Source of the DNA: Candidatus Moraniibacteriota bacterium
Lineage (GTDB): Bacteria; Patescibacteriota; Minisyncoccia; Moranbacterales; UBA1568
Reading direction: 5' to 3'
NCBI GenBank assembly: GCA_903859375.1
Contig: CAIOMK010000059.1
Span: 3,438 to 67,437 of the forward strand
DNA length: 64,000 nt
In this document: piece after piece, positions 6,017 to 21,759 of the stretch
Layout of the letters: every line of letters starts with the position of its first letter
Numbering within the stretch: the stretch's first letter is position 1
Notes under the pieces: generated by a model
The model's database searches: none
Told to the model about the DNA's origin: nothing
The model's input: the letters and a program-made list of their open reading frames with translations, nothing else
Program-made: the position numbers and the translations under genes

Positions 6017-6089
6017 CGGAGTGTGGTATAGTGGTATTACGCACGATTCGGGTTCGTGTAATCCGGGTTCGATTCCCGGCACTCCGACA
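6017..6089 (+). tRNA. tRNA-Pro, anticodon CGG
   Basis: Acceptor stem CGGAGTG/CACTCCG. Anticodon stem CACGA/TCGTG with loop UUCGGGU (anticodon CGG, G37). T-arm CCGGG-TTCGATT-CCCGG. Discriminator A, no encoded CCA. Confidence 0.8.
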
Positions 6090-6249
6090 AAACAAGACTT
6101 GAAAAATGCGCAGGGTTACGGGTTTGCGAAGCATCCGGCGCATGCTGGACGATTCCCGGCACTCCGACAAAACAAGACTTGAAAAATGCGCAGGGTGACG
6201 GGTTTGCGAAGCATCCGGCGCATGCTGGACGATTCCCGGCACTCCGACA
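6071..6249 (+). repeat. Tandem direct repeat, 80-bp unit, 2.2 copies. Each copy starts with the last 19 nt of tRNA-Pro (GATTCCCGGCACTCCGACA).
   Basis: Units at 6071-6150 and 6151-6230 differ by 1 nt, with a partial third copy at 6231-6249. The first copy is the genuine tRNA 3' end. Each unit contains an internal ATGCGC...GCGCAT inverted repeat. Confidence 0.85.
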
Positions 6250-6272
6250 TATTTTGACGGTCACAAACAATT

Positions 6273-6587
6273 ATGAAAATAACCGTACACACGCTTTCAG
6301 CTGATCCCGTGACCGTATTGCGTCGCCTCGGGTATGCCTTCCAAAGGAAAGAAGGTGCCGAGATGAGTTTCATCAGACCGCTTGCGCAAGCTGGGTTTCC
6401 CCGATTCCATTGCTACGCAAAAGTGGAAGGATTCGGTCTGATCATCAGCTTTCATCTCGATCAGAAGAAAGAGACATACGGAGACACGACACGACATCAT
6501 GGAGAATATGAAGCCGAGGGCCCGCTCAAGGAAGAAGCTGACAGGCTGATCGGCCTCCTCGGTCCGAGCGCCCGCATCACAGGCTGA
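6273..6587 (+). CDS. Hypothetical 104-aa protein between the two tRNAs
   Basis: Complete ORF. No recognisable SD and no recognisable domain. Confidence 0.3.
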   Translation: MKITVHTLSADPVTVLRRLGYAFQRKEGAEMSFIRPLAQAGFPRFHCYAKVEGFGLIISFHLDQKKETYGDTTRHHGEYEAEGPLKEEADRLIGLLGPSARITG

Positions 6588-6603
6588 TGGTATCGGTTTA
6601 TCT

Positions 6604-6690
6604 GCCGAAGTGGCGAAATTGGTAGACGCACCAGGTTTAGGGCCTGGCAGGAGCAATCCTATGGGAGTTCGATTCTCCCCTTCGGCACCA
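6604..6690 (+). tRNA. tRNA-Leu, anticodon TAG, long variable arm, CCA encoded
   Basis: Acceptor GCCGAAG/CTTCGGC. Anticodon stem CCAGG/CCTGG with loop UUUAGGG. Long variable arm. T-arm GGAG-TTCGATT-CTCC. Terminal ACCA. Confidence 0.85.
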
Positions 6691-6700
6691 AAGCATGTAT

Positions 6701-6751: not shown

Positions 6752-9550
6752 TTATTCACGCCGAACGGATTCCGATGCCGTTTCCGGTATGAGGGAGAAC
6801 AGAAATCCGACCGTAAAGAGGAGCAGTCCTCCAGAAAGGAACATACGGAATGCGAACGATACGACCGGCGGTACATACCCCGACAAGGCGGCGTAGAATT
6901 TTTTCGTTCCCGAGTCCGCCGATACCAATGGCCGCACATTCGTCACTTGAACGGATTTGCCTATGGTAATTTCAGCTGTCTGCAACGAGTTTATTCCCCA
7001 GATGTTTCTCAGGGCACTTCTTTTCTCGACCGGCTGTGTCAGCGTGGCCGACAACGCTATGTTGGTCACGTCTCCGACCGCATCCCCTTCGGGAGTGATG
7101 TAATCGATACCGATATAATCGGTTCCGTTGATGTTCCACATCGTTTCGCTCTGGGGAACATCGTTCACCACCCATTGTCGCGTCGAAATCCGTTCCGCGA
7201 AAGTCGGCACGAACCGTGCCCGCAAGTCGATCGGGTTTCCGGGATATTTCTCGAAATAGTTTTCACTGAGATCATCATGTGTCGTCCCGTTGAGATCGAC
7301 ATACTGGCCGACGACACGAGGCCAGAGAGATGACGAGTCGGCCGTTTCCAACACGATGTCCGGAGTCACGATATTGAACATGCGGGTGAGGGTGACCACG
7401 TTTCCGGTCTTGATATCAACCGCATCGAGCTTCACTTTGATGGTCGTCCCAGGCTCTCCCGTCACCGCGATGAAGACTTCCGTCCCGCCCGCACACGCGG
7501 AGTCCGACGATACAAGCGAATTGCAGGGAAGATTTTTCCCATCGACCTTCCAACTGAAATCCGACAATCCGGAGTCGGAACTCAGTTTCAATCCGATAAT
7601 CTCGTTCTTCATGACCCGGCACGAGATACGGTCAAGATTCGTCATGGCATCCTGCGCGGTCTTCGGATCTGCGACATACGTGCTACAGATCTGGCTTCCG
7701 AGAAAGACATTCGAACCCGTATCCGTATCGGCTGCGTTAGCCGTGTACGCAAGAATCTTCTTGTCAGAATTGGAAACCTTGACGACCACGTCGCTTTTCC
7801 CGGTCCGACTGCCACGTGAATTGAAATTCTCAGTAGCAGTGGAAGTGAGTCGCAGGTAGAGAGGGTCCGCCGTTGAAAACCCGCCGAGGACGTCGGCACC
7901 CATGTTGAGCGGGATCGAGATAGTTTTCAGGTCGATGCCCTTGTTGATAGGAAGGAGTCCCTTGCTCTTCAGATCGGCCGTGATATTCCTTGCACCGCTC
8001 ATGCCTATGCTATTGCTCGCTTCCACTTTCCATTCGTATGTGACTTCGGCGTCGGTTTTCCCTGAGTTCGTAATGGACGCGACGGCTGTGAGGGTATCGC
8101 CAGCCTTCTCTCCGGACCGGTCATTGGTCGGATTGTCCGGCGTGGCCGACACGTCGAGTTCTATCTTCTTCGAATTTGCCTGACCGGTATCAAGTGGGTC
8201 GATAAGGTTCGTATATATACCGTTTTTCGTTCCTTCCATGCATCTGTTAAAATCATTCCGCCCCATTCCGGTGGTAGGAAAGTTTACGGAATATCCCTTG
8301 ATCGTCGTATTGTAGCTCCCTTTATTCACGACATCACACCCGTCTCCGGAAAATGCCCACATGACCATCATCGATGAATCGGGGTGCTGCGTATTCACCA
8401 TAGATGTCCCTTCCACGATGAGACCGAGAAGATCGCCGGTCTGATACGTCCACGTGAAGGTATCGAGCCCGAGCCCGACGACATTCGCCTCGTCCTTGCT
8501 ACCGTTGTCGGCAGTATCCGCATCGGCCGGATTCGTCCCCCAGAATCTTTCTTCATCAGCAGTGAACCTCCCATCACCGGTCGTCGCGCCGGTCGCATTC
8601 GGAAAAAGATGTATACAGCTGTCTCCGCCAGGAGACGCACTTGCCGAACAAGTCATGTTGTTCTCCACCACCGGATCATACGCGTAGTTCGGTGTCGCCA
8701 ACAGGGTTATCGGGTCGATGGCATCCGGATAGATCCGACGCTGTACCGTATCCGTCAACTGAAAAGTATTCCCCGCAGCCGGGTTGACACAACGTGGCGA
8801 TTCCAAATCCGGACAAGTGACCGAACCCGAGTCACCGCAGATCGGATCCCCATTGACCTTGTACGTGCCGGTTGAGGCGATTTCCCCACCTGTGCTCATG
8901 ACTTCCTTGATACATTTTGCGGCATAGCCACCCGTACCGCATGCAAAAGACGCGGACAGGGACGATGTCGGGCCGAGTTCATAAAACACGCCGGTTGAGA
9001 CATCTTTGACATAACACCACGACTTGTCGATATTCGTCTTGTCCGATCCTCCGAAGACGTTCCGCACATCATACCCATCGTCGTCATCCGGGCCCGGCAG
9101 GAAGAGGGCCGTGTCCGCCCCATCATTCGCTATGATCTTCATAGCCTCGGTCTTCCAATCTTCCGCGCTGTCCGAGGCATCTTTCCTCTTGAGAAACCAG
9201 GTATAGAACAGTTTGTCGTTGGAATTCGAAAAGTAAAGAGGGAAGGCCTTGGCGGTAATCTTCTGACCTTCCTTCGGATCTGTCGGACTGAAGGAAAGAG
9301 TCGTCCCGGGAGCGTATTTTTTCGTATCGGAAACATTGAAACTATGACCGAAATTCTGAATGGAACTCTTGTCAATATTGAGCGCACTCAGGGTATTGTC
9401 GATCATCGTTCCCTGTATGCCCGAGCTGATACCCCCCAGAGAAATACCCAAAAGCGCGTGCGCATCCCACACAGGGATGGATTGTCCGAGAAGTATGACC
9501 GCGACAAGCAAGACGGAGAACGCTCTCTTCATGAAGGAATTTTTTTTCAT
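6752..9550 (-). CDS. Large (932 aa) secreted surface protein with N-terminal signal peptide and C-terminal TM anchor. Putative adhesin of the T4SS-like island.
   Basis: N-terminal MKKNSFMKRAFSVLLVAVILLG signal sequence. Long T/S/G/D/N-rich beta-type sequence. C-terminal hydrophobic helix GGLLLFTVGFLFSLI followed by PETASESVRRE. Confidence 0.8.
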   Translation of the reverse strand: MKKNSFMKRAFSVLLVAVILLGQSIPVWDAHALLGISLGGISSGIQGTMIDNTLSALNIDKSSIQNFGHSFNVSDTKKYAPGTTLSFSPTDPKEGQKITAKAFPLYFSNSNDKLFYTWFLKRKDASDSAEDWKTEAMKIIANDGADTALFLPGPDDDDGYDVRNVFGGSDKTNIDKSWCYVKDVSTGVFYELGPTSSLSASFACGTGGYAAKCIKEVMSTGGEIASTGTYKVNGDPICGDSGSVTCPDLESPRCVNPAAGNTFQLTDTVQRRIYPDAIDPITLLATPNYAYDPVVENNMTCSASASPGGDSCIHLFPNATGATTGDGRFTADEERFWGTNPADADTADNGSKDEANVVGLGLDTFTWTYQTGDLLGLIVEGTSMVNTQHPDSSMMVMWAFSGDGCDVVNKGSYNTTIKGYSVNFPTTGMGRNDFNRCMEGTKNGIYTNLIDPLDTGQANSKKIELDVSATPDNPTNDRSGEKAGDTLTAVASITNSGKTDAEVTYEWKVEASNSIGMSGARNITADLKSKGLLPINKGIDLKTISIPLNMGADVLGGFSTADPLYLRLTSTATENFNSRGSRTGKSDVVVKVSNSDKKILAYTANAADTDTGSNVFLGSQICSTYVADPKTAQDAMTNLDRISCRVMKNEIIGLKLSSDSGLSDFSWKVDGKNLPCNSLVSSDSACAGGTEVFIAVTGEPGTTIKVKLDAVDIKTGNVVTLTRMFNIVTPDIVLETADSSSLWPRVVGQYVDLNGTTHDDLSENYFEKYPGNPIDLRARFVPTFAERISTRQWVVNDVPQSETMWNINGTDYIGIDYITPEGDAVGDVTNIALSATLTQPVEKRSALRNIWGINSLQTAEITIGKSVQVTNVRPLVSADSGTKKFYAALSGYVPPVVSFAFRMFLSGGLLLFTVGFLFSLIPETASESVRRE

Positions 9551-9563: not shown

Positions 9564-10229
9564 TTATCGGATGATAAGGATAAGGACGTCGGACAAAAAT
9601 AATATAAGCCATGCCGACAACCACGAATAGGGAACCGATCGGGTATAGAACGCCACGAATCCAGAACCGAGTGACGCGAGTATCAGCGGGGCATCCTGCC
9701 AGGAAAAACCGACGCCGGAAGCTATCAGGAAAAGAGCAAAGAGTGCGGATTGGAAAAATACAGCCCAGATACCGGCTTTCCGAAGCCACAAGATGAGAAC
9801 GAATCCACGAAAGAACACCTCGTACAGGAAGGCTAACGCTCCAATCAGGATAATCTCGTACAAGAGGAAAAATGGAAACGAATCATGGATGATGGCAGGC
9901 AGATAGTATGACTCCGAAACCGGATAGGTTCGAAGAAGAACGTACCACACCAGAATAATCGGGATGACGACAGCCAAAACGGCGATAATCCCGAACCGGT
10001 GTTTACTTCCCTGAAAACCGAGAACCGACAGTGGCTCATGAAGTATGAGCTTCACAAAAAGAATCGGAAGAACAACGAAAAAAACCGTGCTCAGGAGGAT
10101 GGACTGCACAGTCACATCCAATCTCGACTCGGCTGGAAAAAGCACATATACGGCGAGTGTTCCGAATACAAGAATTGCGATCTGAAAAGATCGTTTCCAT
10201 TTGGAAAGAAGAGGCAGGAAAAAATTCAT
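9564..10229 (-). CDS. CPBP (CAAX/Abi) family intramembrane protease-like protein
   Basis: Polytopic membrane protein with YEVFFRGFV resembling CPBP motif 1 (EExxxR). Confidence 0.55.
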   Translation of the reverse strand: MNFFLPLLSKWKRSFQIAILVFGTLAVYVLFPAESRLDVTVQSILLSTVFFVVLPILFVKLILHEPLSVLGFQGSKHRFGIIAVLAVVIPIILVWYVLLRTYPVSESYYLPAIIHDSFPFFLLYEIILIGALAFLYEVFFRGFVLILWLRKAGIWAVFFQSALFALFLIASGVGFSWQDAPLILASLGSGFVAFYTRSVPYSWLSAWLILFLSDVLILIIR

Positions 10230-10292: not shown

Positions 10293-10784
10293 TTAGGTTC
10301 CTTTCATAGGTATTTTCACGATACGAAGCAGGAACATGGCGAGTGCCTCAAAGGGGATAACCTCACCGAGAAACGGTATTCCCTGAAACGCTCCGGCGAG
10401 AAACAATATCAATTCCCGCATCGCGATAACTTTGATCCGCGCTTTGATAGGCAGTTTCCGTGTCGATGGATCGTAATAGACGATAGCGGCCTGGATAGCC
10501 GTAAAGCAGAATGAGATAAGCCATGAAACTCCGGGGATCCACCCGAATATGAAGGCAAGTACCCATCCCAGAGCGCCGACCATAACGCCGAGCAACAGTG
10601 TCGTGGTCGACATTTTCCCGGCGCCTGCTCCGGCGCCGACCGGTACCGATGTGGGTGTCGCGTTCCTTTTCGGAGCGCTTTCACTCAGAACATCGTCATC
10701 GTTTGACTCATCGTCATCGACCGTGTCTTGGATATGTGTCGGCATAGGACGCTTATCGGTATCAGGATTCCCCTTGTTCCTCAT
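10293..10784 (-). CDS. Small membrane protein with an acidic N-terminus and 3 TM segments. Possibly starts at the internal Met MSTTTLL.
   Basis: ORF overlaps the VirB4 stop by 23 nt. Hydrophobic segments GVMVGALGWVLAFIF and LISFCFTAIQAAIVYY. Confidence 0.45.
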   Translation of the reverse strand: MRNKGNPDTDKRPMPTHIQDTVDDDESNDDDVLSESAPKRNATPTSVPVGAGAGAGKMSTTTLLLGVMVGALGWVLAFIFGWIPGVSWLISFCFTAIQAAIVYYDPSTRKLPIKARIKVIAMRELILFLAGAFQGIPFLGEVIPFEALAMFLLRIVKIPMKGT

Positions 10785-13140
10785 CGAACTCCTTCTTCGC
10801 TGCTTCGATCTCGATCATCTGACGGGGATCGGTAGTGATGATCTGGTCCTCACTGTAAGAGGCGATGACCTTGATGGCGACATGCTTGGTCCCGACGAAA
10901 AAGATCCCTTCACCGACGCTCGACTCAAGCAGGAGAAATTTCTCATGATCGGTCAGATAAAACGTTTCGGCGATAAGGTCGATTGACGATGGGGACTGCT
11001 TCAGGAGCAACTGTATGGACGAGTTCGTGATGATAGGCTTGCCGTATCGGGAAGAGAGGAAGTCACCGATGTCCTGTGTGATGGTCGTCAGTCCCGCATA
11101 GTATTTGCGACACCGTTTGGCGATTCCAAACATGAATGCGGCGGCATCCTCGTTCTGCATCATGATCCAAGCCTCATCGACAACGATCATCCGTTTCTTG
11201 GTCTCCGCGCGGATCTCGTTCCAGATGAATTGCAGGATGATGTACATCGCGACCGGCCGGAGTTCGTTCTCGAGATCGCGGATGTTGAAGATGACCATCT
11301 GCTTGTTCATCGAGATGTTGGTCTGATGATTAAGGAATCCTCCGAACACACCTTCGGTATATCGTTCAAGGCGCGCCGCAAGCGATTCCCCTCCTTCGAG
11401 ATTCCGGAGGACGGCATGCAGGTCGGACATCGTCGGGAACGACGATGCGTCGAGAGCGCGCAGGTCCGAGAGCTCTGTGATGTCCCTGATAGCATAGGTC
11501 TCACGGATCGAACGGTCGAGCACGGAATCCTCTTCCGGTGAAACCGCACCGAGCATAAGGTGTAGCAAGCCTATCAGGTTCGCGATATGGCTCCGGAACA
11601 CGCCCTCGTCATCGTCCGTCGTACCGATTTTCGGCAGATCGAACGGATTCAGGTGTGACTCGGACGAAAGAGAGATACCCAAGAACGACCCGCCGACAGT
11701 ATCACACAGATGTTGGTATTCGTTCTCCGGGTCGATGATGATCACAGACGTTCCGAACATCATTGCGCGCAACACCTCGAGCTTGATCGTATAGCTTTTT
11801 CCGGCACCGGACTTGGCAAAGACGACCATGTTCGCATTCTCCATCTTGAACCGGTCGAACAAGACGAGCGAATTATTGTGACGGTTGATGCCGTAGAGCA
11901 CGCCTTCATTCGACGACAGGTCAGATGAGACGAACGGGAACGTCGTCGAAAGCGGTGACGTATTGAGATTGTTTGCGATATCAAGCGTGTCCATGCCGAG
12001 CGGACGGGTCGAAATGAATCCCTGATCCATCCGAAGAATGGCCGGTTTAGAAAACACCATCTGTGCCTCAAGAATGGCCTCTATCCCCTGCGAGATATCC
12101 GAAAGAGTCTTCTCATCCTGAGCATAGACGGTTATATAGATTCCGAATCGGAAAAATTTCTCCGTCCCCTGCTGGAGACTGTCACGAAGTTCCTCGATAT
12201 TCTCGAGTGCGGATTCAAGGACGGGATCGCGTATTTTTCCGTCCTGGGACTCGATGGACATCTGCGACTGCACCTGTGTTGCGGACCGCCTCAGGTCCTT
12301 CATGATTTCCCGTGTGTCTATCGGATGTATGGAAAACGATATGTCCATCGGCGCATCCATGTTTATGATGGGCGAGAACCAGTTCGTTCCGAGATATTTC
12401 GGGTACGCGACGATAAACAATGTTTTTGCGAGCACATCACCCACTTGCATGGATGTAGGCGACAATCTGATCGCCGACGGCGCTATCAGGTCTCTCAATG
12501 TCGCCACGCCCTGGGAGTACAGGTCCCGGTTCGTCGCATCGGCGGTCTTCGCGGGATGTGGCAGACTTGGAAGTCCGAAGTGTCCAGACGACGCCTTGCG
12601 GGCTACGGGAGACACCTCCTTTGGAACGACGAATGCCGCGTTCGAAGCCGGCTTGATCGGCAAGACGGGATCTGTCAAAAGGGCATCTTGTTCAGGCCTC
12701 CACGCTGCTCGCGGTTGGGGAGCCGGCTCTACGGGAGCGACAGGCGCAGTTACTTGAGCCTCTGTATCGATTCCCCACGCCCCATAAACAGGAGCCTTAT
12801 TGACACTCCGCTCCGGAGCATGAAAAGGAAAGGGGGGGTTGCTCTCGACTGGGTGGACTTGTCCTTCACTACCTTGGTACATTCCTTCTTGCGGTACCTC
12901 CGGGAGGAAAAAAGGGTCGACCGGACGGGTCGGCTCGGAGTCACCGACAGTCGGAATATCAGAATACGGTGAAGTATCGGTTTGTGATTGGGACGGGAGT
13001 TGCGTTGACGGTTGGACAGACGGTGCGACCGGACTGCCGGAAGAATCCGCATTCATTCGTGATTGAGGCGTCAGTTTCCACGGATTGGATGAGGAGGTGA
13101 GATTCAGCCCGTCATCTTCGAAAACGATACTTTGTTTCAT
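10762..13140 (-). CDS. VirB4/TcpF/PrgJ-family type IV secretion ATPase with a ~230-aa Pro/Ser-rich disordered N-terminal extension
   Basis: Walker A FAKSGAGKSYT, IIIDPENEY (VirB4 D-P-E-x-E-Y), and Walker B MIVVDEAW. C-terminal TQ region. Confidence 0.8.
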   Translation of the reverse strand: MKQSIVFEDDGLNLTSSSNPWKLTPQSRMNADSSGSPVAPSVQPSTQLPSQSQTDTSPYSDIPTVGDSEPTRPVDPFFLPEVPQEGMYQGSEGQVHPVESNPPFPFHAPERSVNKAPVYGAWGIDTEAQVTAPVAPVEPAPQPRAAWRPEQDALLTDPVLPIKPASNAAFVVPKEVSPVARKASSGHFGLPSLPHPAKTADATNRDLYSQGVATLRDLIAPSAIRLSPTSMQVGDVLAKTLFIVAYPKYLGTNWFSPIINMDAPMDISFSIHPIDTREIMKDLRRSATQVQSQMSIESQDGKIRDPVLESALENIEELRDSLQQGTEKFFRFGIYITVYAQDEKTLSDISQGIEAILEAQMVFSKPAILRMDQGFISTRPLGMDTLDIANNLNTSPLSTTFPFVSSDLSSNEGVLYGINRHNNSLVLFDRFKMENANMVVFAKSGAGKSYTIKLEVLRAMMFGTSVIIIDPENEYQHLCDTVGGSFLGISLSSESHLNPFDLPKIGTTDDDEGVFRSHIANLIGLLHLMLGAVSPEEDSVLDRSIRETYAIRDITELSDLRALDASSFPTMSDLHAVLRNLEGGESLAARLERYTEGVFGGFLNHQTNISMNKQMVIFNIRDLENELRPVAMYIILQFIWNEIRAETKKRMIVVDEAWIMMQNEDAAAFMFGIAKRCRKYYAGLTTITQDIGDFLSSRYGKPIITNSSIQLLLKQSPSSIDLIAETFYLTDHEKFLLLESSVGEGIFFVGTKHVAIKVIASYSEDQIITTDPRQMIEIEAAKKEFDEEQGES

Positions 13141-13144
13141 AGGG

Positions 13145-13438
13145 TCAACGTTTGGAAAGTTCGAGCTGGTCGACGTTCTTGATGATGGTCGTAGCGAAGA
13201 CTGATGGGTTATAGGTGTTATAGAGCAGCTCGATAGTTTCTTCCGTCCCGAGCATCTTCGTCAGCACGCCGGTTCCGGAGAGTGCCGACGCGACCTGATC
13301 GGCACGCTGTAACAGCTGGTTCCGATAGGTTTCAAATGTCTCACTATGAGAAACCGACCCGGAACTCGGCTGAAAAATACCGGACAGTTTCCCGAGAAGT
13401 CCGCCGGACTCCGTTTCCGACGGTGCGAACGGAACCAC
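13145..13438 (-). CDS. Hypothetical 97-aa protein immediately upstream of the VirB4-like gene
   Basis: Complete ORF in operon context. No TM and no known motif. Confidence 0.4.
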   Translation of the reverse strand: MVPFAPSETESGGLLGKLSGIFQPSSGSVSHSETFETYRNQLLQRADQVASALSGTGVLTKMLGTEETIELLYNTYNPSVFATTIIKNVDQLELSKR

Positions 13439-13849: not shown

Positions 13850-14465
13850 TTTTTCTCTTTCTGTTCCTTTCCGTCCCCGCTCCCGTCCCCGCTTTCGACT
13901 TGTAACTTTCAACTTGTAACTTTCGACTATTCTTCCCCGTCCCCGTCCCCGCTTTCGACTACTCTCCCCCCGTCCCCGTCCCCGCTTTCAACTTGTAACT
14001 TTCGACTATTCTTCCCCTTCCCCACTTTCGACTTGTAACTTTCGACTTATGACTACTCTCCGACTTGTGACTATTCTCCGCTTTTCGACTTTTCACTTTT
14101 CACTTTCGACTACTCTCCCCCCGTTCCCGTTCCCGTCCCCACTTTCGACTTGTAACTTGTGACTACTCTCCTCCCGTTCCCGTCCCCGCTTTCGACTATT
14201 CTTCCCCGTTCCCGCTTTCGACTTGTGACTTGTGACTTGTGACTTGTGACTGTTCTCCGACTTGTGACTACTCTCCTCCCGTTCCCGTTCCCGTCCCCAC
14301 TTTCGACTATTCTTCCCCGCCCCCGCTTTCGACTTTCGACTATTCTTCCCCGTTCCCACTTTCGACTTGTAACTTTCGACTTATGACTACTCTCCGACTT
14401 ATGACTACTCTCCGACTTATGACTACTCTCCCCCCGTTCCCGTTCCCGCTTTTCATTTCCTATCT
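13850..14465. repeat. Complex ~600-bp microsatellite-like array built from CCCGT(C/T)CCCG, CTTTCGACT, TGTAACTTTCGACT, TGTGACT and ATGACTACTCTCCGACTT (3x) motifs
   Basis: Direct reading of 13861-14460. Intergenic within the T4SS-like operon. Overlapping minus ORFs 14093..14359 and 14110..14778 are repeat artefacts. Confidence 0.8.
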
Positions 14466-14936
14466 CGTATCCATAAGCTTCGCGACCCTTCGTATGTCCT
14501 CGGCACTGACCGTTTTCAAATGAACCGGTTCGTTTCCCGATTTCGCTTTCATCGGCTGATATCCCGGCAAAGAAGATGGCCTTCTCCACATGAGCACTTT
14601 CGGATGCAACATGAAGAAGAAAGCGTGAACCACGTAACTGAGAAGAGGCTGTCCCGCAGGTCGATAAAATGCCAGCAGAACGAACAATACCACGATCGGC
14701 ACAGCGACGACGAAAGTCACCGTACCGGGAAAAATCGCCGCAACCGACAAGACAGTCGCGAACATGCCGATCATCCAAAACAGTTGCTTGACTGTCAGTG
14801 GACCGGCAACCTTGTCCTCGACATCTATGAACTGCGGTACATTGAACATCATAACATGGAATTGAATAGTGAACCTACCGTTGAAAACCGACGGAATACG
14901 CATGGATAGCCGTTCAATTCCCGCACAGGTCATCAA
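14460..14936 (-). CDS. PrgI/VirB3-like small membrane protein (2 TM) of Gram-positive-type T4SS. Start uncertain.
   Basis: Motif KVAGPLTVKQLFWMIGMF followed by two TM helices resembles the PrgI family. Positioned in the T4SS operon. Confidence 0.45.
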   Translation of the reverse strand: MMTCAGIERLSMRIPSVFNGRFTIQFHVMMFNVPQFIDVEDKVAGPLTVKQLFWMIGMFATVLSVAAIFPGTVTFVVAVPIVVLFVLLAFYRPAGQPLLSYVVHAFFFMLHPKVLMWRRPSSLPGYQPMKAKSGNEPVHLKTVSAEDIRRVAKLMDTR

Positions 14937-16771: not shown

Positions 16772-19129
16772 CTATGGGACCAGGCCTTCTACTTTCCACG
16801 AATTCTTCTGATTTCCATCCAAGTGTTTATACGCTTCCTGCATATCTTGAATCGTCCAGACTCCGGCAGTATATTTGTCCTCAACAAATGTCTTCAAATG
16901 TGTGTTCATGCTTCCAGGTGTCCCATCTCCATGCATATCCTTCAGTTTGCCGATATCACCAGCTGTCATCTTTGCAAAATGATCGGTATACACTTGAGCA
17001 TCAGATGTCCCAGGGGGAGCAATGGAGATTTCATGCTGAATAATCGGTTCGATTCGGCCTTCCTTTCTCAGCCTGCCGTCAAATTTCTTCTTCAGCTCCG
17101 GATTGGCGGTAAAAGCGGGATTGTTCACCAGAGACTGATACTGGGCAAGATTCATCTTCATCGCATCGCCATCGACCTTGTCGAGAAGTGTAGCAATCGA
17201 TTTGAAATCATCCCCAAGATGCCCGATGGAGGCGATCATCCCTGCCGCATCTTGCATGACCTTCTTATCGACCTTACGGACGATATCAGCTTTCCCTTCA
17301 GGGCTCGCTACGGCATTGATAGCATTATCAAGATCGGACTGGTTCCGGATAGCATCCTTTTTGACAAGCATTCTGGCGGCGGCTTCCCTTTCTGCGACCG
17401 TCGCCTTCAAGTTACTGGGGTCGATATACTCGCGAAGCTTCGCATCATCATGCTTCTTTTCCTCAAATTGCTTTTCTGCATCCGTGACATTCCGTTTGTG
17501 AATCTCTGCGGATGCCGACTGAGTTCCCTTCGCCCATCCTTTTTCTGCGACGCTCTTTGCCTGCAATTCACGATCTTTCGCTGTTTCTTCCCTCTTTCCA
17601 ATCTTTTTAAGTTGATTTGCCCCCCATTCTCCACCCACATTCTTTCCGAACAACTGCCCTGTCTTGGTAACATTCTTCACACCCGCGACCGTACCTCTTG
17701 CAGTGGTCCTTGTAAAACTATTTTTGCCACTCTGACCGACCGTCCCAACAAACAAAGCACCTTTTCCGGCTTTTTTCGCCATCGACTTTGAGAATTTCTT
17801 CGCCGCACCGGCGACGGCCGACGCACCGGCGATGCCGGACGAACCCATGACCGAAATCGACATCCAGATAAAGATGACCGGCAACATGGTCGTGACTGCG
17901 GACGCGACATTTATCCCCCCTATATTCTTGGCTATATTGTCCAACTGCGTCCTGGCCGAGGAGCTGTTGAACTCACTCATCACCTTTACCGAAACCAGGA
18001 GCATCAACGCAGAAGTCGGTCCGAAAATGATATATTTCAGAAAATTATCCCACCACTGGCCGGAAAATTTCTGAAGTCCCGGAATAGCCGTCCCCACAAA
18101 TCCTATCGGTGAAAAGATAATCAGCGCCAAGAGAACGAGAATACGGATGAACAAGAGCGCACCGAGCGCGATAAGCGAGAACCCGAAGATAAAAATGAAA
18201 ACGATCGCGATCAGCATGTCTTTGATCTGATCGACTGATCCGTGTTGCACGAATGTGGACTTGTCCGCGTCTGTCAATATGTTGTTGACGATACCCGAAG
18301 TCTTGAATGCGGTCGAGGATATCGCATCGCCGGCACTTTTCGTCTTGTCCGCGGAAAGACTGTTCAGGAAGAAATACATCGGCACATTACCCGCATCGAT
18401 AAGGAATCGAGCTATAGGGAAACTGAAGTTGGTGAGGAGCGCCATCAGAATGAGGTTCCAGAGGAGTTTTTTGTAGTTGTAGGCCTGCACTTGGAATATC
18501 GTCGCAAACGCGATGAAGAGTATCGTCAGTATGAAGAATAGGTTGAAGAAATCCCGTACCATCCGCCACAGGGTGTATACCGCACTCAGATTGAACAGGC
18601 CGGTCACGGCGATCGGGTTCAGTACGAACGAAAGGAGGACTACACCTAAGGTGATAATAAAACTGACCAGACCGAGTACGGCATGTATCAACTTTGCGAG
18701 GGCCCACAGAAACGTTTCCCCAGGCCCTGAGCCTGATTGCTCGTATTTATTCGTTAGGCCAGCTTCCTCCCTCGCGGTTTTATCGTTCGTGAACTCCCCC
18801 CACCTCGCGATCTGAGCGGGTACGTTTCCTGAGCAAAACGTTACGCACGCTGCCAAGTCAGTCGTCGTTTGCGATGATAGCTCATGGAGGCGTGTCGTAT
18901 CAGTCGAGGCATAACATTGACACGTCCCTGCCGCGGATACAGGCGTCGGTGATGCGCTGATAAAAAAGAAAATACTTGCGACGAAAAACGCCGAAAGCAG
19001 GGCAGGGGAAAGACGGAAAAAAATGTTTCTCTTTTGTTTCACACTCAGAACGTCCCCAAAGGGGCGAAAATCCGTACAAAGAATCAACCGACAGAATCCA
19101 GACATATCATCACTGAAAGAATACCACAA
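16772..19129 (-). CDS. VirB6/TcpH-like polytopic membrane protein of the T4SS-like system. Probable true start is the GTG at 19042, which would give a signal peptide.
   Basis: More than 8 TM segments in the central region and a long soluble C-terminal domain. GTG at 19042..19040 is preceded by GGGGA and yields MKQKRNIFFRLSPALLSAFFVASIFFFISASPTPVSAAG. Confidence 0.65.
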   Translation of the reverse strand: MWYSFSDDMSGFCRLILCTDFRPFGDVLSVKQKRNIFFRLSPALLSAFFVASIFFFISASPTPVSAAGTCQCYASTDTTRLHELSSQTTTDLAACVTFCSGNVPAQIARWGEFTNDKTAREEAGLTNKYEQSGSGPGETFLWALAKLIHAVLGLVSFIITLGVVLLSFVLNPIAVTGLFNLSAVYTLWRMVRDFFNLFFILTILFIAFATIFQVQAYNYKKLLWNLILMALLTNFSFPIARFLIDAGNVPMYFFLNSLSADKTKSAGDAISSTAFKTSGIVNNILTDADKSTFVQHGSVDQIKDMLIAIVFIFIFGFSLIALGALLFIRILVLLALIIFSPIGFVGTAIPGLQKFSGQWWDNFLKYIIFGPTSALMLLVSVKVMSEFNSSSARTQLDNIAKNIGGINVASAVTTMLPVIFIWMSISVMGSSGIAGASAVAGAAKKFSKSMAKKAGKGALFVGTVGQSGKNSFTRTTARGTVAGVKNVTKTGQLFGKNVGGEWGANQLKKIGKREETAKDRELQAKSVAEKGWAKGTQSASAEIHKRNVTDAEKQFEEKKHDDAKLREYIDPSNLKATVAEREAAARMLVKKDAIRNQSDLDNAINAVASPEGKADIVRKVDKKVMQDAAGMIASIGHLGDDFKSIATLLDKVDGDAMKMNLAQYQSLVNNPAFTANPELKKKFDGRLRKEGRIEPIIQHEISIAPPGTSDAQVYTDHFAKMTAGDIGKLKDMHGDGTPGSMNTHLKTFVEDKYTAGVWTIQDMQEAYKHLDGNQKNSWKVEGLVP

Positions 19130-19263
19130 AATACGATATAAAAAAACTCCAAAACATCAAACGTTTCGGAGTTCATTCATACCATAACTCTCACGGTTAC
19201 ATTTCGTATTTTTCTCTTCCGTCTCAGTCTCATATTTTACACTTTTCTCTTTGCACTTTTCGC

Positions 19264-20502
19264 TTAATAGATATATCCCTTGATCGCACGACTGGCGATA
19301 GGAAGGACGCGGCGGTTAACCTTTCCCCAACCCTTGTAGTTCATCTCCGAGATGGTGATCGAGTCCCCGGAGACGCTTTCGACGATTGCGACATGCCCGT
19401 AGTATCGGTTCTCAGTCGTCACGATGATAGCTCCGCGAGACGGAACCCTTCCGGTCCGATATCCCATCGAACGTGCGTTAAATATCCATGTTCCAGCATT
19501 CCCACTCCACGGGACATAGCGTTTCTGAGCCACATACCACGTACAATATCCGTATGGGAACCGGTGTCCGTCCCCGGCCTTGCCATCAAGCGTCCTCCCA
19601 CCGCCCGACACGTCCGTCACCTCGCCGGCGGACGTGGCCGACGCATACTGCCTCCTCGCTATGCCTATCGTATCAACCGGTCTCGGTATCTCCTTGAGCC
19701 CGCCAGGGATCATGATGGAGTCACCGACAATCAGGTCACCGTTCGCAGGCAAGCTGTTGTATGACAATATTTTCTCACGGTCAGCCTTGTACTTCCCCGC
19801 AATGGAGTCGATAGTATCTCCGGACGTGACCGTATATGACAGTCCGGCAATCGGCAGGATGAAAATCTGGTCTCCGGGTTTTATGGAATCCACGTTGTCG
19901 AGGTTGTTCGCCCAGAGGATGGTATTCACGGTGATACCTTGATTCGCCGCAATCCCCGACACTGTATCACCTTCGGCCACGGTATAGATGCTCACGCCAC
20001 CTCCTTCTTCCGGATCTTTGGCAATGGAGTTGTCCGCATGAGCGGAAAGAAGCGCGCCTCCTTGGAATGCGATATTGTCCGCCTCGGCCGTATCTTTTGA
20101 GAGATCGACTGCGGTCGTCGCGGTCGAAAGATGGACAAGTGCAAGGCCTGCTTCCGCCTGACCCTTCAACGCGAACCGGTCACGGTATGTCGTCGGTACA
20201 GGCGTTCCGGTATCACGAAAATAACCGAATATAGCGCTCATTCCCTGCTCATGGGAGACATTCGTCAATGAAACGAGTAAAGCACTGGAGACAACCAGGG
20301 AAAACGCGCCGTACGTCCGGAATGATTCCAGCAATCGTCCGCCGAAACCACCCTTCAGTGTGTCGAGGACGAGACGTTGGGCGTGATGCGCCTCCATTTC
20401 AAAAACGGAGAAGCCTTCCCCGATTCGTTCCCACAGTCGGGAAAGTCCATTCTTGATACGTGACAAAACGGAGATAGGGATGGTCCCTTTCCTCAGGAAC
20501 AA
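19264..20502 (-). CDS. Membrane-anchored peptidoglycan hydrolase with two LysM domains and a C-terminal CHAP domain (TcpG/PrgK-like)
   Basis: LysM repeats YTVAEGDTVSGIAANQGITVNTILWANNL and YTVTSGDTIDSIAGKYKADREKILSYNSL. CHAP Cys motif GYCTWYV and His motif GHVAIVE. Confidence 0.85.
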   Translation of the reverse strand: MFLRKGTIPISVLSRIKNGLSRLWERIGEGFSVFEMEAHHAQRLVLDTLKGGFGGRLLESFRTYGAFSLVVSSALLVSLTNVSHEQGMSAIFGYFRDTGTPVPTTYRDRFALKGQAEAGLALVHLSTATTAVDLSKDTAEADNIAFQGGALLSAHADNSIAKDPEEGGGVSIYTVAEGDTVSGIAANQGITVNTILWANNLDNVDSIKPGDQIFILPIAGLSYTVTSGDTIDSIAGKYKADREKILSYNSLPANGDLIVGDSIMIPGGLKEIPRPVDTIGIARRQYASATSAGEVTDVSGGGRTLDGKAGDGHRFPYGYCTWYVAQKRYVPWSGNAGTWIFNARSMGYRTGRVPSRGAIIVTTENRYYGHVAIVESVSGDSITISEMNYKGWGKVNRRVLPIASRAIKGYIY

Positions 20503-20730
20503 GCTGTAGGCAAGACGCTTTTGACCAGAAAAGCCGTCGAAACCATCGACTCATTCCTTGAATATTTATATGGGATAGTGTACTCGAACAATCCGCTCAT
20601 GTCAACGGTTTTATGGCTCAATAAACTCATTTTTTACCTGGACAAAGCCGTTTATTCAAATCGTTTCCCGCGGCTTCATAGCATCTCGGGCCGATTTGGG
20701 GTACTCTTTGGACGAAAAATGCCGTGAGGA

Positions 20731-21714
20731 GTGTATACTAAGGATATGAACGGGATCAAACCGAAACATGAATCAATCGAAACGGACCCGGTCCGTCTTT
20801 TGGCGCGGAAATTCCTCGAACACCTCGAAATCGAACTCAGCCGATCTCCACGAACCATCGACAGTTACGGCCTTTCCCTGAAGAAATTTTTCGTAACGGC
20901 TCATATACGCACACCGGAAGACATCACTCTCGAACGCATCCGTGAGTACCGTCTCCATCTCAACCGAGAGACAACGCCCACCGGCGAACCACTCCGAAAG
21001 ACGACTCAGACCTATCATGTCGTCGTATTGCGTGCATTTCTCAAATATCTCGCCAAAGAGGACATCGTCACCGTGCCTGCGGAGAAAATAGAGGTCGGCA
21101 AGACCCCGACACGTCAGGTCGATTTCCTCGAACTCGAAGAGATCGAGCGGCTTCTCTCGTCCGCATCGGGGGATTCGCTCCGCTCTCTCCGAGACCGCGC
21201 CATCCTCGAGCTCCTGTTCTCGGCCGGACTGCGGGTATCCGAACTCACCTCGCTCGATCGCGACCATGTGAATCTCAATAAGGGCGAATTCAGCATCCGA
21301 GGCAAAGGTGCCAAGCTCCGCATAGTCTTTCTTTCCGACGATGCCGGCGATGCCCTCTTCCGGTACCTCGAAAAACGACGGGATATGGACCCCGCACTCT
21401 TCGTCGCAGTCCCGATCGCAAAAAAAGGCTTCGTCAAAGAGGGGGCTCTCGGGGATATCAGACTCACACAGCGGAGCGTGCAACGGCTGGTCAAGAAATA
21501 CGCAGCCAAGGCCGGCATCGTCAAAGACGTCCATCCGCACACATTGCGCCATTCTTTTGCGACCGACCTCCTCCAAAACGGTGCTGATATCCGATCAGTC
21601 CAAGCCATGCTCGGACACGCATCCATCACGACGACCCAGATATACACCCACGTGACCAATGAACACCTCCGAGAGATCCACGAGGCCTTCCACGCGAAGA
21701 AAAAGAAGAAATAA
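20731..21714 (+). CDS. Tyrosine recombinase, XerC/XerD/phage-integrase family
   Basis: C-terminal catalytic HPHTLRHSFATDLLQNGADIRSVQAMLGHASITTTQIYTHV, and the LRDRAILELLFSAGLRVSEL box. Confidence 0.9.
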   Translation: MYTKDMNGIKPKHESIETDPVRLLARKFLEHLEIELSRSPRTIDSYGLSLKKFFVTAHIRTPEDITLERIREYRLHLNRETTPTGEPLRKTTQTYHVVVLRAFLKYLAKEDIVTVPAEKIEVGKTPTRQVDFLELEEIERLLSSASGDSLRSLRDRAILELLFSAGLRVSELTSLDRDHVNLNKGEFSIRGKGAKLRIVFLSDDAGDALFRYLEKRRDMDPALFVAVPIAKKGFVKEGALGDIRLTQRSVQRLVKKYAAKAGIVKDVHPHTLRHSFATDLLQNGADIRSVQAMLGHASITTTQIYTHVTNEHLREIHEAFHAKKKKK

Positions 21715-21740
21715 AAAAACCCGACCGATATCGGGTTTTC
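21713..21740. terminator. Bidirectional terminator between the recombinase and convergent nrtR
   Basis: A7-CCCGA-ccgata-TCGGG-T4. Confidence 0.55.
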
Positions 21741-21759
21741 AGGTTCAAACACTCTCAAA

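What the first reader, a model, noticed from the sequence alone, without database searches (positions are those of the whole stretch)
6017..21745. Relaxase-less type IV secretion-like gene island bounded by tRNA genes and a tyrosine recombinase
A single minus-strand gene array carries these components:
- VirB4/TcpF-like ATPase (10762-13140).
- VirB6/TcpH-like polytopic protein (16772-19129).
- PrgI/VirB3-like 2-TM protein (14460-14936).
- LysM+CHAP cell-wall hydrolase of the TcpG/PrgK type (19264-20502).
- CPBP protease.
- A 932-aa secreted surface protein.

This is the core parts list of Gram-positive-type T4SS. No VirD4 coupling protein, relaxase or oriT-like feature is seen in the window.

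The array sits between two core-gene blocks (infB-cca and the NAD salvage operons). It is flanked by tRNA-Pro and tRNA-Leu at one end, with the tRNA-Pro 3' end tandemly duplicated, and by a divergent XerC/D-like recombinase at the other end.

Two readings are possible:
- An integrated or decaying mobile element.
- A chromosomal T4SS-like apparatus used for cell-cell or host interaction, as reported for episymbiotic small-genome bacteria.

Either way, this is a compact, atypical secretion system with several genes of unknown function.
Basis: partly seen in the sequence, partly recalled or inferred. Interest (0 to 1): 0.8.

Follow-up and report, generated by a model that had tools for sequence, protein, structure and literature searches.

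The report
Chromosomal Patescibacteria type IV secretion cluster
This is the chromosomal, relaxase-less type IV secretion gene cluster already described for ultrasmall episymbiotic (CPR/Patescibacteria) bacteria, here in a Moranbacteria genome, and it is inherited vertically rather than being a mobile island.

Summary
The gene array is real and its coordinates are right. I confirmed a VirB4 ATPase, a PrgI/VirB3 protein and a LysM+CHAP wall hydrolase. The polytopic protein has a VirB6 fold. A weak, His-less CPBP-like protein and a 932-aa secreted, Ig-rich, C-terminally anchored surface protein are also present.

The "integrated or decaying mobile element" reading is refuted. In 68 of 80 species-level relatives, nearly all Candidatus Moranbacteria, every gene detected keeps the same order and strand. 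This holds from infB-cca, through tRNA-Pro, a small ORF, tRNA-Leu and the T4SS genes, to the Xer recombinase. The tRNAs and Xer are therefore housekeeping neighbours, not island borders. The tRNA-Pro 3' repeat is a local 80-nt tandem unit on one side only.

The second reading, a chromosomal T4SS-like apparatus of episymbionts, is supported. It is already published (Wang 2023; Quiñonero-Coronel 2025). What it transports is unknown.

The modest new points are a Moranbacteria-specific accessory set and the absence of a VirB2-like pilin gene from the window. Verdict: new member of a known kind, low-to-moderate interest.

The parts
6752..9550 (-). 932-aa surface protein: hydrophobic N-terminal signal-like segment, Cys-rich N-terminal half, tandem Ig-like beta-sandwich domains (~465-870), then a conserved KKF-x-AA-x-S-x-Y-x-P-x-S motif, one TM helix (~895-920) and a basic tail.
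   Evidence: No Pfam, NCBIfam or PDB-sequence hit. AlphaFold mean pLDDT 80.6. Foldseek returns only generic multi-Ig adhesion molecules and an S-layer protein. Hydrophobic segments. C-terminal motif. Orthologs found in 64 loci, always after the 221-aa gene.
9564..10229 (-). 221-aa polytopic membrane protein (about 6-7 hydrophobic segments). A degenerate CPBP/Rce1-like protein that keeps a YExxxRG motif but has no conserved histidines.
   Evidence: Window protein has no Pfam hit. 19 of 33 orthologs hit PF02517, best 1.4e-6. NCBIfam CPBP archaeomyxosortase MrtA 1.6e-5, far below cutoff. Invariant and near-invariant columns include no His. Found in 66 loci.
10293..10784 (-). 163-aa small membrane protein of unknown family (the public gene call is 150 aa), with an acidic N-terminus and 3-4 hydrophobic segments. 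It always lies immediately downstream of virB4.
   Evidence: Iterative profile search finds an ortholog in the virB4 to 221-aa-gene gap in 63 loci. The same family is found in the more distant L072-L082 group, immediately after virB4 wherever that gene's position is known. No VirB2/T4SS_pilin or other consistent Pfam hit in 42 members.
10762..13140 (-). VirB4-family ATPase, 792 aa. The first ~205 residues are P/S/A-rich and low-complexity. Walker A (GAGKS) and Walker B (VVDEAW) are intact, read directly from the sequence.
   Evidence: 493 relatives at 66-82% identity in CPR MAGs. Composition of the N-terminal region.
13145..13831 (-). TrsD-like gene, resembling the N-terminal domain of VirB4. 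It is a single 224-230-aa ORF in most relatives. Here it is split by an in-frame TAG at 13454-13456 into a 125-aa piece and a 97-aa piece.
   Evidence: Intact 228-aa form: NCBIfam TrsD 1.4e-7, and it aligns to the N-terminal parts of the VirB4 models. Precomputed PF26593 TraC-like. The window and L001 have TAG where L002 and L003 have TCG. Single ORF in 73 relatives. TAG is an ordinary stop in 8 of 30 window genes.
13832..14459 (.). Repeat-rich ~630-nt noncoding spacer between the PrgI and TrsD-like genes. CTTTCGACT occurs 14 times, with sub-units of 14, 18, 33 and 40 nt.
   Evidence: The spacer is specific to this species. In relatives this intergenic gap is under 190 nt in all but one locus.
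14460..14936 (-). PrgI/VirB3-like protein with a long central hydrophobic stretch (residues ~51-99), enough for two TM helices.
   Evidence: PF12666 1.2e-9, 39 bits against a cutoff of 27. Hydrophobic segment. Found in 73 loci.
14956..16719 (-). 587-aa soluble protein of unknown family. A conserved ~250-aa N-terminal domain is followed by a P/S/A/V-rich tail carrying conserved FSSxHxxPxE and C-terminal NPFxIxPVS motifs.
   Evidence: No TM or signal-like segment. No Pfam, NCBIfam or PDB hit for it, its orthologs or longer family members. The family has 811 cluster representatives at E<=1e-3. Every listed hit that carries a source name is a hypothetical protein of Moranbacteria or the Patescibacteria group. 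Conserved motifs.
16772..19129 (-). Extended VirB6-like channel protein: N-terminal TM or signal helix, T/A/S-rich linker, VirB6-fold helical membrane bundle (~136-457), and a C-terminal all-helical domain (~478-785).
19144..19174 (-). Terminator-like hairpin (14 pairs followed by a T-run) between the CHAP gene and the VirB6-like gene.
   Evidence: This is a consensus pattern match only.
19264..20502 (-). LysM (x2) + CHAP peptidoglycan hydrolase, filling the VirB1/PrgK/TcpG role. The catalytic Cys (GYCTWY) and His (YGHVAIV) are present, read from the sequence.
   Evidence: Conserved next to Xer in 52 loci.
20731..21714 (+). Xer-type tyrosine recombinase. This is a housekeeping neighbour and not part of the secretion system.
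   Evidence: Phage_integrase 7e-43. XerD 4e-74 and XerC 8.5e-72. It exceeds the cutoff of the XerA-type model, 235 against 220. Conserved in place at 58-83% identity in 51 loci.
6017..6690 (+). Conserved context: tRNA-Pro(CGG) 6017-6088, the 80-nt tandem repeat 6070-6249, a conserved 104-aa ORF 6273-6587, and tRNA-Leu(TAG) 6604-6690. Not part of the system.
   Evidence: The same tRNA-Pro, ORF, tRNA-Leu arrangement occurs in 22 of 24 loci checked; the other two show tRNA-Leu only. The small ORF is found in 39 loci.

Best explanation
The region is the chromosomally fixed, vertically inherited type IV secretion cluster of a Candidatus Moranbacteria bacterium (Patescibacteria/CPR). It belongs to the monoderm-type (MPF-FATA-derived), relaxase-less T4SS lineage already described for this phylum.

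**Shown here: the parts**
- An intact VirB4 ATPase.
- A separately encoded protein resembling the VirB4 N-terminal domain (TrsD-like), split by a nonsense codon in this strain.
- A VirB3/PrgI membrane partner.
- An extended VirB6 channel protein.
- A LysM+CHAP wall hydrolase.
- Four conserved accessory proteins: a small membrane protein after virB4, a His-less CPBP-like membrane protein, a 932-aa Ig-rich C-terminally anchored surface protein, and a soluble 587-aa protein with a proline-rich tail.

**Inferred from established T4SS biology: how it works**
- VirB4 docks on the membrane through PrgI and TrsD and powers assembly and transport.
- Transport runs through a VirB6 channel.
- The hydrolase opens the peptidoglycan locally.
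- The Ig-rich protein forms the surface-exposed or contact part.

**Inferred: what it does**
No coupling protein, relaxase or oriT lies nearby, so it is not a conjugation machine. Most likely it moves macromolecules between the episymbiont and its host cell. I slightly favour import of host-derived nucleic acid over export of proteins, but the direction and the substrate are not established.
For: **Identity of the parts:**

**Organism and breadth:** 493 VirB4 relatives at 66-82% identity, nearly all Moranbacteria or Patescibacteria MAGs.

**Vertical, fixed locus**
- In 68 of 80 species-level loci, all detected genes are colinear and on the same strand. 21 loci span the full stretch from Xer to cca.
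- The same tRNA-Pro, ORF, tRNA-Leu arrangement is present in relatives.
- GC is 0.518 against 0.543 in the flanks, and codon usage (RSCU) correlates at r 0.86.
- There is no GC step at the edges.

**No T4CP or relaxase** among the window ORFs scanned.

**Literature**
- PMC12102498 describes a monophyletic Patescibacteria VirB4 clade nested in MPF-FATA. TrsD, PrgI/VirB3, VirB6 and VirB1-like genes lie near virB4. Relaxases are almost absent and the location is chromosomal.
- The T4SS is essential for epibiotic growth of Southlakia, and lacks recognisable coupling and relaxase proteins (PMC10633639; PMC12857230).
- The nutrient or nucleic-acid uptake idea is raised in PMC11665869. A 2026 preprint reports host-RNA uptake and possible T4SS pili in a cultivated member of the phylum.
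Against: - No experiment exists for Moranbacteria, and the substrate and direction are unknown even in Saccharibacteria.
- Wang et al. lean towards protein export.
- The TrsD-like gene carries a nonsense codon in this strain and in one other assembly. Its Southlakia homolog is reported essential. The apparatus could therefore be impaired in this lineage, or the two halves may still work.
- Only 64 kb of the genome was visible. A VirD4-type protein, a relaxase or VirB2-like pilins may be encoded elsewhere. VirD4 homologs far from virB4 are common in the phylum.
- I did not build a VirB4 tree, so clade membership rests on nearest relatives.
Confidence: 0.82

Rival explanations
1. An integrated or decaying conjugative element (ICE remnant) inserted at tRNA-Pro or tRNA-Leu. 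The neighbouring tyrosine recombinase would be its integrase, and it would have lost its relaxase and coupling protein.
For: - The T4SS genes are of the kind usually carried by Gram-positive conjugative elements.
- tRNA genes and a tyrosine recombinase flank the array.
- The 3' end of tRNA-Pro is repeated.
- Codon-usage correlation with the flanks is somewhat lower (r 0.86) than the flank-versus-flank value (0.95).
Against: - The block, both tRNAs, the intervening small ORF and the recombinase are conserved in the same order in 68 of 80 species-level relatives.
- The recombinase scores as XerC/D/A at 58-83% identity across species.
- All three copies of the tRNA-Pro 20-mer lie within 180 nt on one side. 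No copy exists elsewhere in the window on either strand.
- There is no GC step.
- Any acquisition would predate the radiation of the order or phylum, as proposed in PMC12102498.
Confidence: 0.03
2. A working conjugative or DNA-export T4SS whose relaxase, oriT and VirD4-type coupling protein are encoded elsewhere in the genome.
For: - The VirB4 is closest to conjugative families (CD1110).
- PMC12102498 reports VirD4 homologs in most Patescibacteria genomes, mostly far from virB4.
- Only 64 kb was inspected here.
Against: - Relaxases were found in only 103 of ~3,035 Patescibacteria genomes and rarely near virB4.
- The t4cp homolog is not essential in Southlakia, while the T4SS genes are.
- None is present in this window.
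- A conjugation system fixed in one chromosomal site across a whole order has no obvious cargo.
Confidence: 0.06
3. The four lineage-specific genes (163-, 221-, 932- and 587-aa proteins) are not T4SS components. They would form a separate cell-surface or envelope module that merely sits beside the core genes.
For: - None of them matches a known T4SS family.
- The more distant group L076-L082 has the prgI-trsD-virB4 core without detectable 221-, 932-, 587- or 785-aa homologs.
Against: - Same-strand packing is tight, with small gaps or overlaps to virB4, and adjacency is invariant in more than 60 species.
- The 163-aa family follows virB4 even in the distant group.
- The 587-aa gene sits between the VirB6 and PrgI genes.
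Confidence: 0.15

Closest known systems
Patescibacteria-clade T4SS (Quiñonero-Coronel et al. 2025, PMC12102498), with the Southlakia epibionticum SEML1_0006-0019 system (Wang et al. 2023, PMC10633639) as the studied example
   Same: - Chromosomal and relaxase-less, with no coupling protein next to virB4.
- MPF-FATA-like VirB4 with a TrsD-like gene, PrgI/VirB3, VirB6 and a wall hydrolase clustered around it.
- Found in an ultrasmall monoderm episymbiont lineage and conserved within its class.
   Different: - No VirB2-like pilin gene (PF18895) lies in the cluster or anywhere in the 64-kb window. Such genes sit upstream of prgI in more distant relatives and are essential in Southlakia.
- This order carries its own accessory set: the 932-aa Ig-rich anchored protein, the His-less CPBP-like protein and the 587-aa soluble protein.
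- The locus sits between infB-cca and Xer, not next to dnaA (no dnaA or dnaN domain among the window ORFs scanned).
- The TrsD-like gene is interrupted in this strain.
Gram-positive conjugative T4SS of the MPF-FATA class (CTn2/CD1110-type, pCF10 Prg/Pcf, pCW3 Tcp)
   Same: - The VirB4 passes the CD1110-family model.
- PrgI-family VirB3.
- A VirB6-type channel.
- A CHAP-containing hydrolase, as in PrgK/TcpG-type enzymes.
- No outer-membrane core components.
   Different: - No relaxase, T4CP or oriT.
- No detectable VirB8-like (PrgL/TcpC) protein.
- Not on a mobile element.
- The hydrolase pairs LysM with CHAP rather than a lytic transglycosylase with CHAP.
- The score against the TcpF model is far below its cutoff (28 against 1100 bits).
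T4CP-less, VirB4-powered uptake systems: Helicobacter pylori ComB and the archaeal Ced DNA importer
   Same: - A VirB4-type ATPase works without a relaxase or coupling protein.
- They set a precedent for inward transport of nucleic acid.
- The window VirB4 has a weak match to CedB (6.7e-14, far below cutoff).
   Different: There is no specific homology beyond the shared ATPase superfamily. Import by the Patescibacteria system is a hypothesis (PMC11665869; 2026 preprint), not a result.
VirB6-family channel proteins with solved structures: R388 TrwI and Legionella DotA
   Different: - Sequence identity is only 8-13%.
- The window protein adds a ~300-residue all-helical C-terminal domain ('extended VirB6').
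- No VirB5 partner is evident.

Membership tests
Patescibacteria-clade (MPF-FATA-derived) T4SS | VirB4-family ATPase of the monoderm (FATA) type with intact nucleotide-binding motifs | tested here: met
   NCBIfam CD1110-family VirB4, 365 bits against a cutoff of 325. Pfam P-loop_TraG, AAA_10 and DUF87. 4AG5 at 1.7e-49. Walker A and B read from the sequence.
Patescibacteria-clade (MPF-FATA-derived) T4SS | VirB4 falls inside the monophyletic Patescibacteria clade of the VirB4 tree | tested here: inconclusive
   I built no phylogeny. 493 relatives at 66-82% identity are nearly all Moranbacteria or Patescibacteria MAGs. This is consistent with clade membership but is not a tree.
Patescibacteria-clade (MPF-FATA-derived) T4SS | TrsD-like protein (VirB4 N-terminal-domain homolog) encoded next to virB4 | tested here: met
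   The intact 228-aa allele scores TrsD 1.4e-7 (below the curated cutoff) and aligns to the N-terminal parts of the VirB4 models. Precomputed PF26593. Adjacent to virB4 in 76-77 loci. In the window it is split by TAG.
Patescibacteria-clade (MPF-FATA-derived) T4SS | VirB3/PrgI membrane protein near virB4 | tested here: met
   PF12666, 39 bits against a cutoff of 27.
Patescibacteria-clade (MPF-FATA-derived) T4SS | VirB6-type polytopic channel protein | tested here: met
Patescibacteria-clade (MPF-FATA-derived) T4SS | No relaxase or coupling protein associated with virB4; chromosomal location | tested here: met
   No such Pfam family in the window ORFs scanned. Core genes lie on both sides, and synteny is conserved. 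The rest of the genome was not visible.
Patescibacteria-clade (MPF-FATA-derived) T4SS | VirB2-like pilin gene(s) near virB4 (frequent, reported in about half of assemblies, so not universal) | tested here: not met
   An iterative search seeded with the PF18895 pilins of L081 finds them in L068, L069, L072, L073, L077, L078 and L080-L082. It finds none among the window ORFs. The 163-aa family shows no pilin hit.
Integrative conjugative element / genomic island | Present in some close relatives and absent from others at the same site | tested here: not met
   68 of 80 species-level loci are colinear. No empty site was seen.
Integrative conjugative element / genomic island | Direct att repeats at both ends, one in the target tRNA | tested here: not met
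   The 20-mer occurs only at 6070, 6150 and 6230, all on one side. No copy lies near 20.5-21.8 kb or elsewhere on either strand.
Integrative conjugative element / genomic island | Element-specific integrase, relaxase, oriT and T4CP | tested here: not met
   The recombinase is Xer-type and conserved in place. No relaxase or T4CP was found. oriT cannot be tested with these tools.
CPBP / Rce1-like intramembrane protease (221-aa protein) | Match to the family model | tested here: inconclusive
   The window protein has no Pfam hit. 19 of 33 orthologs hit PF02517, best 1.4e-6. NCBIfam MrtA scores 25 bits against a cutoff of 200.
CPBP / Rce1-like intramembrane protease (221-aa protein) | Catalytic motifs EExxxR, FxxxH and HxxxN/D (motif definitions from my own knowledge of the family) | tested here: not met
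   The alignment shows invariant E125, E137 and R141 ('YEVFFRG'). No invariant or near-invariant His exists anywhere in the protein.
   The TcpF model scores 28 bits against a cutoff of 1100, E 4.5e-7. This is only generic VirB4 similarity. TcpH and TcpG models were not available.

The most novel reading that the evidence does not exclude
Moranbacteria may run a distinct architectural variant of the Patescibacteria T4SS. In it, the extracellular part would not be a VirB2-like pilus. It would instead be a ~930-aa Ig-rich protein held by a C-terminal 'motif, TM helix, basic tail' anchor. That anchor would be handled by the adjacent His-less CPBP-like membrane protein, in a sorting-enzyme/substrate-like pairing. 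A family-specific soluble 587-aa protein with a proline-rich tail would stand in for the missing coupling protein or act as the transported substrate.
Probability: 0.15. Interest if true: 0.55.

Novelty: new member of a known kind. Interest (0 to 1): 0.3.

Why it matters
The Patescibacteria T4SS is one of the few machines known to be essential for the epibiotic lifestyle of this huge, mostly uncultivated radiation. Its substrate is an open question. This locus adds no new principle.

It does show three useful things:
- In a whole order (Moranbacteria), the system sits in a fixed chromosomal site and is vertically inherited.
- The minimal core conserved across the relatives examined here appears to be PrgI, TrsD, VirB4 and a small uncharacterised membrane protein.
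- The order-specific partners are unannotated families: an Ig-rich anchored surface protein, a degenerate CPBP-like protein and a soluble proline-rich protein. These are concrete candidates for host contact, anchoring and substrate or adaptor roles.

It is also a cautionary case. tRNA genes, a tyrosine recombinase and T4SS genes together do not make a mobile island.

Tried and rejected
**Mobile-island reading.** Rejected on synteny, composition and att-repeat placement.

**The 163-aa protein as a VirB2-like pilin.** No PF18895 or PF04956 hit in 42 family members. It was not recovered by a search seeded with true pilins from L081.

**The 587-aa protein.** All of the following gave nothing, so its function stays unknown:
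- Pfam on it, on 30 orthologs and on 10 longer family members.
- NCBIfam.
- A PDB profile search.
- A 5.8-billion-protein search: every listed hit that carries a source name is a hypothetical protein, and none has a Pfam domain.
- A 1.84-billion-representative profile search: 811 hits, but only the strong ones are listed, so no remote link emerged.

**The 932-aa protein.** No sequence family. The fold search gives only generic Ig-domain matches. The N-terminal Cys-rich half remains unassigned.

**PDB sequence-profile search for the VirB6-like protein.** This failed. The fold comparison was needed to place it.

**TAG reassignment or readthrough as an explanation for the split TrsD-like gene.** TAG ends 8 of 30 ordinary genes, and other strains have TCG at that codon. 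It is a nonsense polymorphism.

**RNA explanations.**
- An RNA-structure explanation for the 80-nt tRNA-Pro repeat unit found no fold signal (z -0.03 and -1.2).
- An Rfam scan of 5.8-21.9 kb found only the two tRNAs and one sub-threshold hit.

**Wasted look-ups.** Two exact-protein contig look-ups for other window genes returned nothing, probably because my ORF starts differ from the called genes.

Full report
**What is there**

A single minus-strand array runs from 6752 to 20502.

- The 792-aa protein (10762-13140) is a VirB4-family ATPase. Pfam gives P-loop_TraG 4.6e-28, AAA_10 and DUF87. It exceeds the curated cutoff of the NCBIfam model 'VirB4-like conjugal transfer ATPase, CD1110 family', 365 against 325 bits. 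Its closest solved relative is the VirB4 domain of a Gram-positive Thermoanaerobacter (4AG5, 1.7e-49), followed by TrwK of R388. Walker A (GAGKS) and Walker B (VVDEAW) can be read in the sequence.
- The 158-aa protein (14460-14936) passes Pfam PrgI.
- The 412-aa protein (19264-20502) has two LysM domains and a CHAP domain.
- tRNA-Pro(CGG) at 6017-6088 and tRNA-Leu(TAG) at 6604-6690 are present. The last 20 nt of tRNA-Pro occur three times in an 80-nt tandem array, 6070-6249.

The divergent recombinase (20731-21714) is XerC/XerD-like. It passes the cutoff of the XerA-type model.

**The VirB6 call needed structure**

The 785-aa protein has no Pfam, NCBIfam or PDB-sequence hit.
- An AlphaFold model built on 51 homologs has mean pLDDT 79. 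It shows a helical membrane bundle at ~136-457 and an all-helical C-terminal domain.
- Foldseek agrees, with TrwI at probability 1.00 and TM 0.52-0.58 normalised to the target.
- Two sequence homologs, P0088 and P0094, pass the Pfam TrbL/VirB6 threshold. Residues 154-455 of the window protein align with that region of P0088 at 34% identity, E 2e-49.

It is therefore an 'extended VirB6'.

**The remaining members**

*The 221-aa 'CPBP protease'.* This is only loosely a CPBP protein.
- The window protein has no Pfam hit.
- 19 of 33 orthologs hit PF02517, best 1.4e-6.
- The alignment keeps a YExxxRG motif but has no conserved histidine at all. By the standard CPBP motifs (my own knowledge of the family), it is unlikely to be a canonical protease.

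*The 932-aa protein.*
- It has a hydrophobic N-terminal signal-like segment and a C-terminal TM helix.
- The model is beta-rich, with tandem Ig-like domains, mean pLDDT 80.6.
- It resembles only generic multi-Ig adhesion molecules and an archaeal S-layer protein.
- Its C-terminus is a conserved motif (KKF-x-AA-x-S-x-Y-x-P-x-S), then the TM helix, then a basic tail.

1. A TrsD-like gene (13145-13831). It is homologous to the N-terminal part of VirB4 proteins. It is a single 224-230-aa ORF in most of 73 relatives. Here it is split by TAG, where two other assemblies of the same species have TCG. TAG is an ordinary stop in this genome.
2. A 163-aa small membrane protein directly after virB4. It is found at that position in 63 loci. 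The same family is also present in the more distant group, directly after virB4 wherever that gene's position is known. It shows no pilin or other consistent family match.
3. A 587-aa soluble protein (no TM or signal segment). A conserved 250-aa N-terminal domain is followed by a P/S/A/V-rich tail. No family was found by any search.

**Organism and the test of mobility**

VirB4 relatives in a one-genome-per-species collection number 493. The best 80 are 66-82% identical, and nearly all are Candidatus Moranbacteria or Patescibacteria MAGs.

I mapped 21 window proteins onto these 80 loci.
- In 68 loci, every detected gene lies in the same order and on the same strand as in the window. The order is: DUF4446, infB, cca, tRNA-Pro, small ORF, tRNA-Leu, 932-aa, 221-aa, (163-aa), VirB4, TrsD, PrgI, 587-aa, VirB6, CHAP, then the divergent Xer.
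- 21 loci are long enough to show the whole span from Xer to cca.
- The two tRNAs are in the same place in 22 of 24 loci checked.
- Only the sequence beyond Xer varies. It is the NAD-salvage block here and in three of the relatives examined (L006, L010, L063), and a UvrD/PcrA helicase in most others. That helicase lies at 27114-29405 in the window.
- The exceptions are inversions of Xer, alone or together with the CHAP gene, in four loci, differences outside the array at the cca/infB end in two loci, and a more distant group, L076-L082, with a rearranged cluster.

Composition agrees with the flanks. GC is 0.518 against 0.543, GC3 is 0.592 against 0.630, and codon usage correlates at r 0.86. 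There is no GC step.

The tRNAs and the recombinase are conserved housekeeping neighbours, not island borders.

**The tRNA-Pro repeat**

All three copies of the 20-mer lie within 180 nt on one side. A conserved ORF and tRNA-Leu separate them from the array, and no other copy exists in the window on either strand.
- Another assembly of the same species has one unit fewer.
- A different species, L005, has one homologous 91-nt unit. Closer relatives have none.
- The unit has no significant RNA fold.

It looks like a small variable tandem repeat, or the scar of something that once used the tRNA-Pro 3' end. It has nothing to do with the T4SS genes.

**Absences**

No VirD4/TcpA-type coupling protein or relaxase family was found in any of the 49 window ORFs scanned, 97-1021 aa. 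The rest of the window is core: NAD salvage, UvrD/PcrA, Mur ligase, FemAB, RuvA and RuvB, DNA polymerase I, the pol III delta subunit, and type IV pilus ATPases.

No VirB2-like pilin is present either. True PF18895 pilin genes lie just upstream of prgI in the distant group. A search seeded with them recovers pilins in L068, L069, L072, L073, L077, L078 and L080-L082, but nothing in the window.

**Comparison with what is known**

This system is already described.
- Quiñonero-Coronel et al. 2025 (PMC12102498) found VirB4 in 2,417 of 3,035 Patescibacteria genomes.
  - Nearly all form one clade nested within the monoderm MPF-FATA class.
  - TrsD, PrgI/VirB3, VirB6 and VirB1-like hydrolases lie near virB4.
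  - Relaxases occur in only 103 genomes.
  - The location is chromosomal, and transfer between classes is rare.
- Wang et al. 2023 (PMC10633639) showed by Tn-seq that the T4SS cluster of the saccharibacterium Southlakia epibionticum is essential for epibiotic growth. They noted its pilin array and the lack of recognisable coupling and relaxase proteins.
- Reviews call its role 'completely unknown'. They discuss effector delivery or nucleic-acid and nutrient uptake (PMC11665869; PMC12857230).
- A 2026 preprint reports host-RNA uptake, and tubular structures that may be T4SS pili, in a cultivated member of the phylum.

The window locus is a member of this lineage. Its local particulars are:
- the fixed infB-cca to Xer site;
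- the absence of nearby pilin genes;
- an order-specific accessory set;
- a nonsense allele in the TrsD-like gene;
- a species-specific 630-nt repeat spacer inside the cluster.

**How it most likely works**

*Shown:* the parts list and its conservation.

*Inferred from established T4SS biology:*
- The VirB4 hexamer is tethered to the membrane by PrgI/VirB3 and the TrsD-like protein.
- It energises assembly and transport through a VirB6 channel.
- The LysM+CHAP enzyme opens the wall locally.
- The Ig-rich anchored protein provides the exposed, host-facing part.

*Inferred from absences and literature:* this is not conjugation. It moves macromolecules between the episymbiont and its host. I slightly favour uptake of host nucleic acid, by analogy with the T4CP-less ComB and Ced importers and the 2026 preprint. 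Protein export is about as plausible (Wang et al.), and nothing in the sequence decides between them.

*Speculative:* the His-less CPBP-like protein handles or holds the C-terminal anchor of the neighbouring 932-aa protein. The 587-aa soluble protein is an adaptor or a substrate.

**Verdict**

The mobile-element reading is refuted. The chromosomal-apparatus reading is supported, but it is already published. This is a new member of a known kind, with a few unannotated lineage-specific partners worth following up.

Noticed in passing
window 6070-6249: An 80-nt unit is repeated 2.25 times, starting at the last 20 nt of tRNA-Pro(CGG). Another assembly of the same species (L001) has one unit fewer. 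A different species (L005) has one homologous 91-nt unit, and closer relatives have none. No significant RNA fold. It may be a variable tandem repeat or the scar of an element that used the tRNA-Pro 3' end.
   Followed up: partly
window 13832-14459 (related motif copies at 5879-5901 and 52221-52243): A ~630-nt noncoding, repeat-rich spacer lies inside the T4SS cluster, between the PrgI and TrsD-like genes. CTTTCGACT occurs 14 times, with 14/18/33/40-nt sub-units. It is specific to this species; relatives have under 190 nt here in all but one locus. Function unknown; it could be a regulatory array or a simple expansion.
   Followed up: partly
window 13454-13456: An in-frame TAG splits the TrsD-like gene in the window and in assembly L001. 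Assemblies L002 and L003 of the same species have TCG (Ser). This is a nonsense polymorphism in a gene whose Southlakia homolog is reported essential.
   Followed up: partly
window 54449-57514: A 1021-aa ORF carries two separate T2SSE (PilB/PilT-type) ATPase stretches. It is either a fused double ATPase or two adjacent type IV pilus ATPase genes read in one frame.
   Followed up: no
window 6273-6587: A 104-aa ORF between tRNA-Pro and tRNA-Leu is conserved at 51-87% identity. About half of the 38 complete orthologs (of 39 detected) are 103-104 aa. No Pfam family.
   Followed up: partly
L081:7206-8482 and equivalents in L072-L082; L068:15534-16436, L069:15105-15962: VirB2-like T4SS_pilin (PF18895) genes sit upstream of prgI in the more distant relatives. 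In two Moranbacteria loci they lie just after the 932-aa gene. They are absent from the window.
   Followed up: yes
window 10762-13140 (protein residues 1-205) and 14956-16719 (protein residues 250-587): Both the VirB4 N-terminus and the tail of the 587-aa protein are long P/S/A/V-rich low-complexity regions (16-17% Pro). The VirB4 extension is variable among relatives; most matches start near residue 207.
   Followed up: no
window 29566-36400: A stretch of hypothetical ORFs without Pfam hits and with lower GC (down to 0.436 at 36-37 kb) lies between the UvrD/PcrA gene and two TrmB-like regulator genes. Not examined further.
   Followed up: no
window 19144-19174 and 6701-6734: Strong hairpins with T-runs. 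One lies between the CHAP gene and the VirB6-like gene, which suggests the hydrolase is a separate transcription unit. The other is a perfect 15-nt inverted repeat between tRNA-Leu and the end of the 932-aa gene, possibly a two-way terminator.
   Followed up: no
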